Below, in pieces: positions 14,345-64,000 of a stretch of 64,000 nt of DNA; within the stretch, counting starts at the first letter, position 1; each line of letters begins with the position of its first letter. The notes beneath the pieces are model-generated. The model searched no databases. It worked only from the letters and a program-made list of their open reading frames with translations, and was not told the DNA's origin. The stretch lies in contig JAQGDQ010000524.1 in NCBI GenBank assembly GCA_030141605.1, positions 1-64,000 of the forward strand, written 5' to 3'. Made by a program: the position numbers and the translations under genes. The DNA comes from Tubiluchus corallicola. Taxonomy: Eukaryota > Animalia > Priapulida.

Positions 14345-14600
14345 GATCAACTTGCTGACCATTGAGAAACTTTACTTTTACACAACGTTTGTTAGTTTTG
14401 TTACAATGATCAATTTGGTGGCCATTGAGAAACTTTACTTTTTATACAACGTTTGTTAGTTTTGTTACAATGATCAATTTGGTGGCCATTGAGAAACTTT
14501 ACTTTTTATACAACGTTTGTTAGTTTTGTTACAATGATCAACTTGGTGGCCATTGAGACACTTTACTTTTTACACAACGTTTGTTAGTTTTGTTACAATG
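14345..14600. repeat. 64-bp minisatellite, ~4 copies
   Basis: TGATCAA-TTGGTGGCCATTGAGAAACTTTAC... units at 14407, 14471, 14535; mirrored at ~63790-64000. Confidence 0.9.
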
Positions 14601-15382
14601 AGAATTTGCAGGTAAAAACTGCCAGACAAAGGATTTATTAAGGAAGGTTCTTAAGCTTTGTAAAGATCACATTCTCGTGTCAGGTTCATTTTCGGGTTTT
14701 GTGCGTTTTGGGTAAATTTATTCAGTGTTTTGTGTTGTTTTGTTCAGCAAATGAAGCGTTTTCATGGAGTACCAGCGGATTTTTCTCAACTAGTTAAATT
14801 ATTTTCCTACTTAAACAAAAACAGGCAACATCTTCAAATAGCTAATGAAATAATCAACCAGAATATGTTATTTGTGCAAGTGCTGGACATAAACCTTCTG
14901 TGCCCTAATGATATTTGTAAAAAAAATGTAAAATTTCACACAGCAGCAAGCCACTGCTTAGTAGGAACAAAAGGTTGCCATGGTGTTTGTGACGTGCAGC
15001 TCCTATGTTCATTGTCCCGCTGTAGATTCACGCTGCTGGAATGAGCATTGCTGAAGTTGGCGTTGCTATGGTGACAAGAACGTTTTGCCTGCCATCTAGG
15101 GGCGAGTTTCAAAAACAATGCAAGTGTGAAATTGCACTACTAGCTGTAATATGGATGGTAAGATACATCCAATATACAGAGTATGTGTCATTATAGTTTG
15201 CCCTTTGCAAGTCACTATAATGGCAAACTGCTTTAGTTTGATATTCGAATGGTATAGAATATCATTAGAACACAATTAATTATTTAAATTTTTAGTGTAC
15301 GATGTATTGCAAGCGTGATTGGCTATACTACAATGATATGAAGCCACATAAATGACTTGTGTACGTAGTAAGCCTCGATGTA

Positions 15383-16009
15383 AGGAAGACAGGATGATTT
15401 ATCATACACTAATCATTTACAAGTACGGTAAAAAGTAGACATTTTAACACCAATAATACTGCAAAAGCGTTTCTGATAATTAAATAATAGATTAGAAACT
15501 TAATTAATAGCTGGCGAGTCCATCTATTGATGACATCACAAACTAACATAATTTTCAACAGCAAAAACATTCCACGAGCGCATTGCACGTGTTTGGGAAA
15601 GCGAAAATTGAAGAGCAGTGCTACAGTAACATATTCAGTGTGTTGTACTAAAACTAGGTATTTTTTAAATTCAAATTTAAATTTCAAATTTACCACTGTG
15701 CTCACGCATGAACTGTCGAACGTGTGCAGTTCGTCATAAACTAACACGTCTAAACTGAAAGGTAAAGTACCTGTTTTTGTGCAATGCGTTTTCGAAATGC
15801 AGGCGCCAGCGCCCGTCTAACTAGGGAAATGTGAAATGCATGTAACAGCAAAGAACTAGTGGCATGAATACGAAATTGTGTTTGTGTGGTAAGAATTCTG
15901 TCATTCATTCATTTCTTTTATTAATAAGTCATTCTGGAAATGTTTCCTTTCAATATTTTAAAGAAGAGATTGTTTTGACCTATAGTTTAAGATTGGGTCC
16001 GGTTTTGCT
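15383..16009. mobile_element. Kolobok/T2-like MITE, copy 2
   Basis: Same sequence family as 5485-6063 (AGGAAGACAGGATG...GGTCCGGTTTTGCT). Confidence 0.75.
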
Positions 16010-16066
16010 TAAAAAAATAATTAGTGACCACAATCCTGTGATTCGTCACTTTGTAATCAATTAATA

Positions 16067-16322
16067 TGCTGCTATGCCAAGTCCAAACAACCTACTTAAA
16101 CTGTTGACATAGCTAACTGTTGTTTTACATATCAATAGCCAATGTCAAAAATACGTAGCCAAGTTGCTGCTATGCCAAGTCCAAACAACTTACTTAAACT
16201 GTTGACATAGCTAACTGTTGTTTTACATATCAATAGCCAATGTCTATTAATACGTAGCCAAGTTGCTGCTATGCCAAGTCCAAACAACTTACTTAAAATG
16301 TTGACATAGCAAACTGTTATTT
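16067..16322. repeat. ~98-bp tandem repeat, ~2.6 copies
   Basis: TGCTGCTATGCCAAGTCCAAACAAC units at 16067, 16165, 16264. Confidence 0.9.
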
Positions 16323-16494
16323 TACGAGGAAAGCAGTGACATTAACAAATTATGGAAACTCACCGCGCTGATACCAAAGAGAATTAGCAACAGTCTCATC
16401 ACTCAATGTAACCTGGAAAAATTACGAGGATTTTGTAAACAATTAAATAATAAATACATGAATAATAATTAATAATAATAATAATTAATAATAC

Positions 16495-16518
16495 TAATAT
16501 AATAAGTGTCGAAGACAT
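16495..16518 (-). CDS. Start-codon exon of the Gly-rich protein (MSSTLIIL)
   Basis: Exon 16554-16495 has acceptor CCATAG|G, start context CAAAATG and phase-0 donor TTA|GTATTA. Joined to 14237 it gives signal peptide MSSTLIILLWCAATASA. Confidence 0.7.
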
Positions 16519-60700: not shown

Positions 60701-60902
60701 TCTCGTGGGCGGTGTTGTCGCCTTGTCGCTTTTGTTATATGGAACATTAGAGGCACAATGTTGGTCATCGCGCCTCGCTATGTACTTCACGGCCGCGGGC
60801 CAAAATTGACGTAACGAAGAAACGGACGATTCATAGCAGAAAGTGTTACGTTGTAAAAGAAATCTAGGAAAAAACCGCCTTCGAAAATTTAAATGGCGGT
60901 CG

Positions 60903-61004
60903 TATATAAAGCAATGCTTCCTGATGTGAGCAGTTAAACGAGATAGTGAGGTGTGTGAAAAGTGTCTTCGTGCAGTGCTAGTAGTCACTGTGTGTTCTGA
61001 TTTT
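60903..61004 (+). promoter_or_regulatory. Mirror TATA/Inr and non-coding exon 1 of the Gly-rich gene
   Basis: TATATAAAG at 60903-60911; donor GTAAGC at 61005. Confidence 0.55.
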
Positions 61005-61868
61005 GTAAGCATTTATTTACTAGTAAGTCTTCATGGTAGTAGAAGTTTATGTAAACTGTTCTATGCATTTGTAGGTACTTACGATTTCGTGCTACACTTA
61101 CGTTTGTACATATGTGACGCTTGCTGTAAATGAGAAATGCTTTTTTTAACAGATAAAAGAAGCATGAAAGAAAGGAGGTAAGGTGAAAAATGAGAGAAAG
61201 AAAAAAAGAAAGAAAGAAAGAAAGAAAGAAAGAAAGAAAGAAAGAAAGAAAGAAAGAAAGAAAGAAAGAAAGAAAGAAAGACAGAAAGAAAGAAAGAAAG
61301 AAAGAAAGAAAGAGAGAGAGAGAGAGAGAGAGAGAGAGAGAAAGAAAGAAAGAAAGAAAGAGAGAGAGAGAGAGAGAGAGAGAGAAAGAAAGAAAGAAAG
61401 AAAGGAAGGAAGAAAGAAAGAAAGAAGAAAGAAAGACATAAAGAAAGAAAGAAAAAAGAAAGAAAGAGAAAAAAGAATGAAAAAATAAAAGAATAAAAGA
61501 AAGAAAGAAATAAAGAATGAATGAATGAAAGAAAAGAAAGAATGAAAGAAACAGGGAAAGAAACTAACAAATTAACTCAGAAAACCGATTCTTCTTTATA
61601 GAACTAAAATATCGTTTATGATACATTAAGATATTTGTGCAACAAAAATTCAATACGTCCAAAATTACTCTAATGTTTCATTGTAATTTTTTAAGATGTG
61701 CATAACAGAAACTTGTCTGTTTATAATTGACACTTTTCTCTGAATTTCATTGCACATGGCGTCTATATCGAATTTGCAAATTTTCCACTGGAAGAAATAA
61801 CACAGACAGAAACCTGATATGTTTATCCATAGGCTTAGTTGCAGCGAGGCAGCTAAGATACAAACAAA

Positions 61869-61892
61869 ATGTCTTCGACACTTATTATATTA
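61869..61892 (+). CDS. Mirror start-codon exon (MSSTLIIL) of the Gly-rich gene; main exon expected just beyond the window
   Basis: Reverse complement of 16495-16518. Confidence 0.6.
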
Positions 61893-62377
61893 GTATTATT
61901 AATTATTATTATTATTAATTATTATTCATGTATTTATTATTTAATTGTTTACAAAATCCTCGTAATTTTTCCAGGTTACATTGAGTGATGAGACTGTTGC
62001 TAATTCTCTTTGGTATCAGCGCGGTGAGTTTCCATAATTTGTTAATGTCACTGCTTTCCTCGTAAAATAACAGTTTGCTATGTCAACATTTTAAGTAAGT
62101 TGTTTGGACTTGGCATAGCAGCAACTTGGCTACGTATTAATAGACATTGGCTATTGATATGTAAAACAACAGTTAGCTATGTCAACAGTTTAAGTAAGTT
62201 GTTTGGACTTGGCATAGCAGCAACTTGGCTACGTATTTTTGACATTGGCTATTGATATGTAAAACAACAGTTAGCTATGTCAACAGTTTAAGTAGGTTGT
62301 TTGGACTTGGCATAGCAGCATATTAATTGATTACAAAGTGACGAATCACAGGATTGTGGTCACTAATTATTTTTTTA

Positions 62378-63004
62378 AGCAAAACCGGACCCAATCTTAA
62401 ACTATAGGTCAAAACAATCTCCTCTTTAAAATATTGAAAGGAAACATTTCCAGAATGACTTATTAATAAAAGAAATGAATGAATGACAGAATTCTTACCA
62501 CACAAACACAATTTCGTATTCATGCCACTAGTTCTTTGCTGTTACATGCATTTCACATTTCCCTAGTTAGACGGGCGCTGGCGCCTGCATTTCGAAAACG
62601 CATTGCACAAAAACAGGTACTTTACCTTTCAGTTTAGACGTGTTAGTTTATGACGAACTGCACACGTTCGACAGTTCATGCGTGAGCACAGTGGTAAATT
62701 TGAAATTTAAATTTGAATTTAAAAAATACCTAGTTTTAGTACAACACACTGAATATGTTACTGTAGCACTGCTCTTCAATTTTCGCTTTCCCAAACACGT
62801 GCAATGCGCTCGTGGAATGTTTTTGCTGTTGAAAATTATGTTAGTTTGTGATGTCATCAATAGATGGACTCGCCAGCTATTAATTAAGTTTCTAATCTAT
62901 TATTTAATTATCAGAAACGCTTTTGCAGTATTATTGGTGTTAAAATGTCTACTTTTTACCGTACTTGTAAATGATTAGTGTATGATAAATCATCCTGTCT
63001 TCCT
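62378..63004. mobile_element. Kolobok/T2-like MITE (mirror of 15383-16009)
   Basis: Reverse complement. Confidence 0.75.
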
Positions 63005-64000
63005 TACATCGAGGCTTACTACGTACACAAGTCATTTATGTGGCTTCATATCATTGTAGTATAGCCAATCACGCTTGCAATACATCGTACACTAAAAATT
63101 TAAATAATTAATTGTGTTCTAATGATATTCTATACCATTCGAATATCAAACTAAAGCAGTTTGCCATTATAGTGACTTGCAAAGGGCAAACTATAATGAC
63201 ACATACTCTGTATATTGGATGTATCTTACCATCCATATTACAGCTAGTAGTGCAATTTCACACTTGCATTGTTTTTGAAACTCGCCCCTAGATGGCAGGC
63301 AAAACGTTCTTGTCACCATAGCAACGCCAACTTCAGCAATGCTCATTCCAGCAGCGTGAATCTACAGCGGGACAATGAACATAGGAGCTGCACGTCACAA
63401 ACACCATGGCAACCTTTTGTTCCTACTAAGCAGTGGCTTGCTGCTGTGTGAAATTTTACATTTTTTTTTTACAAATATCATTAGGGCACAGAAGGTTTAT
63501 GTCCAGCACTTGCACAAATAACATATTCTGGTTGATTATTTCATTAGCTATTTGAAGATGTTGCCTGTTTTTGTTTAAGTAGGAAAATAATTTAACTAGT
63601 TGAGAAAAATCCGCTGGTACTCCATGAAAACGCTTCATTTGCTGAACAAAACAACACAAAACACTGAATAAATTTACCCAAAACGCACAAAACCCGAAAA
63701 TGATCCTGACACGAGAATGTGATCTTTACAAAGCTTAAGAACCTTCCTTAATAAATCCTTTGTCTGGCAGTTTTTACCTGCAAATTCTCATTGTAACAAA
63801 ACTAACAAACGTTGTGTAAAAAGTAAAGTGTCTCAATGGCCACCAAGTTGATCATTGTAACAAAACTAACAAACGTTGTATAAAAAGTAAAGTTTCTCAA
63901 TGGCCACCAAATTGATCATTGTAACAAAACTAACGAACGTTGTGTAAAAAGTAAAGTTTCTCAATGGCCACGAAGTTGATCATTGTAACAAAACTAACAA

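What the first reader, a model, noticed from the sequence alone, without database searches (positions are those of the whole stretch)
14390..64000. Giant palindrome: arms of at least 24 kb around a 1.7-kb spacer, duplicating whole genes
Seen: ~14390-38288 is the near-perfect reverse complement of 39968-64000, and the match runs to the window edge. It duplicates the acidic-protein gene, the 5' end of the Gly-rich gene and seven OATP exons. Inference: the arm probably continues, placing a second Gly-rich exon at ~64150-65750 and a second OT/VP gene at ~70.9-76.5 kb. Established: large palindromes with short spacers arise from fold-back/BFB-type or origin-dependent inverted amplification, and also as phi29-MDA fold-back chimeras that let assemblers join two haplotypes head-to-head. 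If real, it is a young inverted amplicon doubling neuropeptide and secreted-protein dosage.
Basis: partly seen in the sequence, partly recalled or inferred. Interest (0 to 1): 0.82.

Follow-up and report, generated by a model that had tools for sequence, protein, structure and literature searches.

The report
Giant palindrome, likely two alleles misjoined
The assembly really holds a 24-kb mirror-image repeat, but its two arms differ as much as alleles from different animals do and it cuts a conserved transporter gene inside a tandem repeat, so it is likely the two parental copies of one region joined head-to-head during assembly rather than a real gene doubling.

Summary
Confirmed in the sequence: 14389-38288 is the reverse complement of 39968-64000 (99.04%, 76 substitutions, 19 gaps) around a 1,679-bp spacer. 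Seven OATP exons, a secreted acidic-protein gene and the Gly-rich gene's first exon are doubled. The junction joins a (GTT)n microsatellite to the middle of a 101-104-bp tandem unit. Residues 1-234 of a full-length OATP relative have no match in the window. Over the same intervals the arms differ from each other (0.69%) as much as other animals' contigs differ from the right arm (0.64%), and both arm alleles occur in another sample at two sites. A fresh fold-back would give identical arms. Best reading (0.65): a fold-back chimeric molecule bridged a contig break in the array and the assembler joined two haplotypes. Not proven: none of the runs laid match the window's own animal; the junction's absence from other animals' contigs is weak, because real links into the array were pruned too; depth is inconclusive; one sample shows three local haplotypes. 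A real inverted amplification keeps 0.35. The scan noted similar mirror duplications in other genomes, none in this one.

The parts
14389..38288 (-). Left arm (23,900 bp; minimum length), inverted copy of the right arm
39968..64000 (+). Right arm (24,033 bp, runs to the window edge)
38288..38289 (.). Fold-back junction: microsatellite end of the left arm joined to the middle of an array unit; 1 nt shared, no foreign bases
38289..39967 (.). Spacer, 1,679 bp, single copy in the window
   Evidence: 39190-39640 matches only itself
38289..39192 (+). Tandem array, 8.8 units of 101-105 bp; each unit is intron end + splice acceptor + first 26 nt of an OATP exon; first unit is cut at the junction
38303..38312 (.). 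10-bp stretch of the array unit that is the reverse complement of 39937-39946 in the spacer microsatellite; possible fold-back anchor 15 and 22 nt from the two junction ends
   Evidence: match found with unit 38880-38983; position in the first unit read; chance level not computed
39167..39297 (+). OATP exon a, spacer only
   Evidence: Pfam OATP E=8.6e-14
39403..39538 (+). OATP exon b, spacer only
39668..40272 (+). (CAA)n microsatellite; the right arm begins inside it; its distal half is mirrored at 37993-38288
42445..52229 (+). OATP exons c-i, right-arm copy: 42445-42609, 43750-43942, 45886-46027, 46873-47036, 47831-47895, 49572-49689, 52007-52229; with exons a-b an open frame of 444 codons, 88.6% identical to P0001 residues 236-672
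26076..35820 (-). OATP exons c-i, left-arm copy (no exons a-b in front); one synonymous difference
22838..24287 (+). Secreted acidic Ala/Glu-rich protein gene, 3 coding exons, 156 aa; mirror copy 54051-55500 on the minus strand
   Evidence: no Pfam match for the large exon
16364..16399 (-). Predicted first coding exon (signal peptide) of the Gly-rich gene; identical mirror at 61988-62023
12651..14237 (-). Large exon of the Gly-rich gene, outside the part of the arm that can be compared in the window
1877..7441 (+). Oxytocin/vasopressin-type precursor gene (peptide CFITNCPPG), left flank; duplication not testable
   Evidence: Pfam Hormone_5 E=1.7e-20

Best explanation
The palindrome is likely an assembly product in which the two parental haplotypes of one locus are joined head-to-head across a fold-back junction. 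Shown: the geometry (arm, 1,679-bp spacer, arm); a junction with 1 shared nucleotide that cuts a tandem unit in the middle; the loss of the first third of an otherwise intact OATP gene; and arm differences of allelic size and pattern. Inferred: a strand copied or read leftwards stalled in the long tandem array, folded back and restarted 1.68 kb behind in the (CAA)n microsatellite, perhaps anchored by the 10-bp inverted match beside the junction. Inferred: true reads failed to cross the array, which is likely several kb long in some animals, so the chimeric molecule became the bridge. Inferred: the assembler, unable to use the same reads twice, filled one arm from each haplotype. The animal would then have one copy of each gene per chromosome and an intact OATP whose 5' exons lie upstream of the array.
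For: (1) Over the same 5,353 aligned contig bases (19 of 32 listed pieces; 13 in a LINE fragment dropped; X1-X3 are one sample), other animals' contigs differ from the right arm at 34 positions (0.64%) and the left arm differs at 37 (0.69%). (2) Sample S1 shows both arm alleles at 46787 and 48044; X4 (sample S2) matches the left arm at the 2 substitutions shown, with 2 gaps where the arms have 2 gaps, over 47759-48247, then the right arm at 5 of 5 sites over 48349-48490. (3) The 37 substitutions outside tandem repeats are clustered: dispersion 4.6, reached by 0 of 10,000 random placements; this is not steady decay after a duplication. (4) P0001 residues 1-234 have no tblastn match in the window, while residues 236-672 match nine intact exons; 3 of 3 displayed exon variants in other animals are synonymous, as expected for a working gene that needs its 5' exons. 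(5) The junction sits in an array whose summed contig depth is about 30-67 times the arm depth in X2 and X3, against 8.8 assembled units. (6) The first unit has a T at 38328 seen in none of the other matching units and in none of 4 runs. (7) Inversions with an intervening segment under 10 kb are the commonest MDA chimera, 337 of 475 (PMC1855051, passages); such reads left false inverted duplications in a published assembly (PMC6218980, passages); unamplified nanopore DNA also gives fold-back reads (PMC12870357, passages).
Against: None of the four runs matches the window's own animal (11 of 15 unique-sequence variants examined are in neither arm), so read support for the junction is unknown. 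Within 46777-46788 sample S1 shows three local haplotypes, one more than a single diploid with one locus can carry: S1 is a pool, or one contig is from elsewhere, or the region is truly multi-copy. The arms differ 95-145 bp from the junction, which one fold-back molecule alone would not produce. Only 1 nt is shared at the junction, whereas 93.5% of close MDA inversions had 2 or more (PMC1855051, passages). Allele-level arm divergence with identical blocks of 3.4-3.8 kb is also what gene conversion or exchange with the homologue would give in a real palindrome. How the library was made is not known.
Confidence: 0.65

Rival explanations
1. A real, private or polymorphic inverted duplication or triplication. 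A replication template switch or break-induced fold-back occurred at the array/microsatellite pair in this animal or its recent ancestors; the arms became allelic because the amplified piece integrated into, or later recombined with, the homologous chromosome. An intact OATP would lie beyond a second junction outside the window.
For: The spacer (1,679 bp) is inside the 766-70,466-bp range of human fold-back duplications (PMC3907307, passages). Inverted triplications can carry SNPs of both homologues, and their spacers can lengthen secondarily (PMC10766186, passages). No gap or foreign sequence at the junction. Arm differences close to the junction. Three local haplotypes in S1.
Against: It needs extra steps (second junction plus homologue exchange) to explain arms that differ like alleles along their whole length. 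Only 1 nt of junction microhomology, against 2-8 bp in 13 human junctions (PMC3907307, passages). The spacer is far longer than the 40-80 nt of primary ODIRA junctions. The break falls in the kind of long array where assemblies tend to break (own knowledge).
Confidence: 0.22
2. A fixed, older palindrome of the species, kept near-identical by arm-to-arm gene conversion in the manner of primate Y palindromes; the 'alleles' seen in other animals would then be arm variants.
For: Patchy identity with blocks up to 3.8 kb; both arm variants at two sites in S1 and three local haplotypes there; arm depth in X1 is 1.59 times that of contigs from other loci.
Against: Arm depth relative to contigs from other loci is 0.92, 0.65 and 0.44 in X2, X3 and X4 (2-3 comparison contigs per run, two high-depth X4 contigs left out, and the tool warns that depth is no copy number). 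Both arms lack the first third of OATP, yet the orphaned exons show no decay.
Confidence: 0.13

Closest known systems
Inverted chimeras of multiple displacement amplification (Lasken and Stockwell, PMC1855051, passages) and the false inverted duplications they leave in long-read assemblies (Warris et al., PMC6218980, passages; Vecchi et al., PMC13265396, passages)
   Same: Inverted join with an intervening single-copy segment under 10 kb; no foreign bases; a gene is cut at the junction.
   Different: Only 1 nt shared at the junction; arms are far longer than one amplified strand and differ like two haplotypes, so assembly from further reads is needed; amplification of this library is not shown.
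Fold-back reads in unamplified long-read data (Heinz et al., PMC12870357, passages)
   Same: Second segment maps to the same place on the opposite strand; said to tangle assembly graphs.
   Different: Their definition has the two segments within 200 bp; here 1,679 bp are present once. They saw virtually none in HiFi genomic reads.
Human fold-back inverted duplications with a disomic spacer (Hermetz et al., PMC3907307, abstract and passages)
   Same: Spacer length in range; same geometry.
   Different: 2-8 bp microhomology there, 1 nt here; formed from one strand, so arms start identical; linked to a terminal deletion or second junction, not testable here.
ODIRA inverted triplications (Brewer et al., PMC10766186, passages)
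   Same: Palindromic junction beside a short inverted match; can involve both homologues.
   Different: Primary junction spacing 40-80 nt against 1,679 bp; second junction and three-copy state not testable.
Primate Y palindromes P1-P8 (arm lengths 8.7-1450 kb as cited in PMC6218980, passages; upkeep by gene conversion recalled)
   Same: Large arms carrying whole genes around a short spacer.
   Different: Those are fixed and show doubled read depth; here doubling is not seen consistently and a conserved gene is truncated at the centre.

Membership tests
Fold-back chimera misassembly (MDA or long-read) | Inverted join with an intervening single-copy segment under 10 kb | tested here: met
   1,679-bp spacer
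Fold-back chimera misassembly (MDA or long-read) | Short complementarity (2-21 nt) at the re-priming site | tested here: inconclusive
   1 nt exactly at the junction; a 10-bp inverted match 15 and 22 nt away; a minority of MDA chimeras had 0-1 nt (PMC1855051, passages)
Fold-back chimera misassembly (MDA or long-read) | Arms are the two alleles of one locus | tested here: inconclusive
   Divergence equals that between animals and both variants occur elsewhere, but a real palindrome with gene exchange fits too
Fold-back chimera misassembly (MDA or long-read) | Junction carried by few reads of the source library and absent from native DNA of the same animal | not testable with these tools
   The runs served are other animals and contigs only
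Fold-back inverted duplication (human type) | Normal-copy spacer of about 0.8-70 kb | tested here: met
   1,679 bp; range from PMC3907307 passages
Fold-back inverted duplication (human type) | 2-8 bp inverted microhomology, or a shared repeat, at the junction | tested here: not met
   1 nt
Fold-back inverted duplication (human type) | Arms copied from one strand, so identical when young | tested here: not met
   76 substitutions and 19 gaps, clustered, some shared with other animals
Fold-back inverted duplication (human type) | Second junction (telomere, translocation) beyond the arm | not testable with these tools
   Arm runs off the window; no genome held
ODIRA inverted triplication | Short inverted repeats 40-80 nt apart at the primary junction | tested here: not met
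   Spacer 1,679 bp; secondary lengthening is allowed by the model (PMC10766186, passages)
ODIRA inverted triplication | Three copies with a second palindromic junction | not testable with these tools
   Outside the window
Fixed palindrome kept by gene conversion (Y type) | Doubled read depth over the arms in all individuals | tested here: inconclusive
   Arm to other-locus contig depth 1.59, 0.92, 0.65, 0.44; arm to spacer comparison does not separate the models
Fixed palindrome kept by gene conversion (Y type) | Junction present in other individuals | tested here: inconclusive
   No spanning contig among those listed for 4 runs, but real links into the array are pruned as well

The most novel reading that the evidence does not exclude
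A real germ-line inverted amplicon of at least 24 kb per arm segregates, or is fixed, in an invertebrate species. It was seeded by a hypervariable splice-acceptor array folding onto a neighbouring microsatellite inside a transporter gene, its arms are kept at allele-level similarity by exchange with each other or the homologue, and it doubles a secreted acidic protein, a Gly-rich protein and perhaps the oxytocin/vasopressin-type neuropeptide gene.
Probability: 0.33. Interest if true: 0.55.

Novelty: not a real feature. Interest (0 to 1): 0.18.

Why it matters
If artefact: this contig double-counts at least 24 kb, annotation would report false paralogues of the acidic protein, the Gly-rich protein and possibly the neuropeptide gene, and OATP would look truncated; the same signature (inverted arms at allelic distance, junction in a long array) is a cheap screen for the rest of the assembly. 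If real: a naturally segregating giant palindrome in an invertebrate germ line would allow direct tests of palindrome stability, arm-to-arm conversion and neuropeptide dosage.

Tried and rejected
No whole genome is held, so the arm's continuation, a second junction and the OATP 5' exons could not be searched. Junction in other animals: none of the listed contig pieces of X1-X4 crosses 38288/38289; arm-side contigs of X1-X3 run on into the spacer microsatellite and array-side contigs into another unit (131 pieces not shown). I first took this as strong and then set it aside: array contigs in all four runs also run unbroken through the point where the array must exit into exon a, so real low-depth links were pruned; Logan contigs are simplified graphs (10.1101/2024.07.30.605881, passages). 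Arm-to-spacer depth: the arm-end contigs (35.6, 188.2, 7.11) overlap words repeated inside the spacer and fit neither model cleanly. No RNA holder listed. No homologue found for the neurophysin exon among longer proteins or for the first 200 residues of the Gly-rich exon; both are weak negatives. A leftover sequencing adapter at the centre was rejected: arm and array abut with no foreign bases. Steady divergence after an old duplication without exchange was rejected by the clustering test. Two paper searches for assemblers joining haplotypes head-to-head (listings only) gave no paper that I could match to this case; the assembler step rests on my own reasoning. The peptide CFITNCPPG is listed in 8 papers, several on crustaceans (listing only); I did not use it to place the animal. 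No supplements were read.
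Full report
Observation. Self-BLAST of the window gives one inverted match of 24,047 columns that runs to base 64000. Trimmed, 14389-38288 against 39968-64000 is 99.04% identical with 76 substitutions and 19 gap events. The spacer is 38289-39967. No genome is held, so nothing beyond 64000 could be checked.

Genes. The right arm plus spacer hold nine OATP exons with AG/GT borders and an open frame of 444 codons. 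A search with one exon found a 672-residue OATP from a 2,447-base Logan contig (P0001), 88.6% identical over residues 236-672. Its residues 1-234 have no match in the window. Exons a and b lie only in the spacer; exons c-i are in both arms with one synonymous difference. A three-exon gene for a 156-residue secreted Ala/Glu-rich protein and the predicted signal-peptide exon of the Gly-rich gene are doubled. The oxytocin/vasopressin-type gene (Pfam Hormone_5) is in the left flank, where duplication cannot be tested.

Junction. The left arm ends in a (GTT)n microsatellite and joins directly to the middle of a unit of a 101-105-bp tandem array. One T is shared and there are no foreign bases. A 10-bp stretch of the unit is the reverse complement of 39937-39946, so a stem could form 15 and 22 nt from the two joined ends (chance level not computed). 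This favours a fold-back, in the tube or in the cell alike. The first unit has a T at 38328 found in none of the other matching units and in none of four runs. Summed contig depth over the array is about 30-67 times the arm depth in X2 and X3, about 6 times in X1 and 4 times in X4, so the array is probably much longer than 8.8 units in some animals.

How the arms differ. Outside tandem repeats there are 37 substitutions and 7 small gaps in 18,355 bases. They are clustered: dispersion 4.6 (0 of 10,000 random placements reach it), longest gap reached by 7 of 10,000, identical blocks of 3,768 and 3,391 bp. Four public runs from two samples hold this DNA. I laid their contigs on 46620-49900. Of 40 displayed variant rows I examined the 15 in unique sequence (25 in high-copy repeats dropped; 101 rows not shown): 11 are in neither arm and 4 are the left-arm allele. 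So these are other animals. Over 19 of 32 listed pieces (5,353 bases; X1-X3 are one sample, so not independent) they differ from the right arm at 34 positions and the left arm differs at 37. S1 shows both arm alleles at 46787 and 48044. X3 has two contigs over 48408-48532, one identical to the right arm and one with 5 differences where the arms differ at 4 (letters not shown). X4 follows the left arm over 47759-48247 and the right arm over 48349-48490. All 3 displayed exon variants are synonymous. The arms are therefore as far apart as alleles, and share variants with other animals.

What the reads cannot show. No listed contig crosses the junction in any of the four runs. This is weak: array contigs also pass unbroken through the word from which the array must exit into exon a, so real links into the deep array were removed by graph simplification (10.1101/2024.07.30.605881, passages). 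Arm depth against contigs from other loci is 1.59, 0.92, 0.65 and 0.44 (2-3 comparison contigs per run): no consistent doubling, but noisy. The arm-to-spacer comparison does not separate the models.

Results against my reading. S1 shows three local haplotypes within 46777-46788. That fits a pooled sample or a stray contig, but also a real extra copy. The arms differ 95-145 bp from the junction, so one folded molecule cannot have supplied both sides; the assembler must have changed reads within or next to the spacer, or polishing changed them. Only 1 nt of microhomology is atypical for close MDA inversions (PMC1855051, passages). Patchy, allele-level arm divergence is also expected under gene conversion.

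Mechanism. Best (0.65): a fold-back chimeric molecule, made during amplification or sequencing, bridged a break in the long array, and the two haplotypes were laid head-to-head. Shown: geometry, junction, truncated gene, allelic divergence. Inferred: the chimera, the coverage break, the assembler's path. Inverted joins with a skipped segment under 10 kb were 337 of 475 MDA chimeras (PMC1855051, passages); such reads left inverted duplications in an assembly that vanished after correction (PMC6218980, passages); nanopore genomic DNA has about 0.55-0.6% fold-back reads (PMC12870357, passages). Rival 1 (0.22): a real private or polymorphic inverted duplication or triplication with homologue exchange; the spacer fits human fold-back duplications (PMC3907307, passages) and ODIRA allows both homologues to contribute (PMC10766186, passages). 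Rival 2 (0.13): a fixed palindrome kept by gene conversion.

Verdict. As biology it is more likely than not an artefact of a known kind, and if real it is a new member of a known class of rearrangement. Interest 0.18; 0.55 if real. The source reads would settle it.

Noticed in passing
window 38289-39192: The tandem array repeats a splice acceptor plus the first 26 nt of an OATP coding exon, giving eight decoy acceptors before the real one. Seven would hit a stop after 36-37 codons; the nearest, 105 bp upstream, is in frame and would add 35 residues. Contig depth suggests very different copy numbers among animals.
   Followed up: partly
window 46777-46788: Sample S1 shows three local haplotypes in 12 bp; pool, stray contig or extra copy is unresolved.
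   Followed up: partly
window 1877-7441 (+): Intact three-exon oxytocin/vasopressin-type precursor with peptide CFITNCPPG followed by GKR; no homologue found for the neurophysin exon among longer proteins.
   Followed up: partly
window 22838-24287 (+) and 54051-55500 (-): Secreted 156-residue acidic protein, 25% Ala and 22% Glu, with a signal peptide and a KR site; no Pfam match for its large exon.
   Followed up: partly
window 16399-12651 (-): Gly/Ser/Tyr-rich secreted protein with 21- and 9-residue repeats, a Thr-rich and a basic segment; no Pfam match and no homologue for its first 200 residues. A structural or adhesive role is a guess.
   Followed up: partly
window 5481-6067, 15382-16014, 20704-21258, 35927-36401, 36980-37594 and mirrors: A dispersed element of about 600 bp in both orientations, 76-84% identical between copies; related sequence at 47170-47830 has very high summed contig depth.
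   Followed up: no
window 48500-49330 and 51030-51600 with mirrors; 770-1236: Decayed retrotransposon-like fragments (DUF6451 match E=0.001; the LINE label is my recollection of such sequence, not a tool result).
   Followed up: no
window 14344-14608, 16067-16325, 21613-21881, 22234-22642, 23514-24921, 26558-26778, 33712-34284: Many short tandem arrays with periods of 32-104 bp, 2.6-18 copies each; local tandem duplication seems common in this genome.
   Followed up: no
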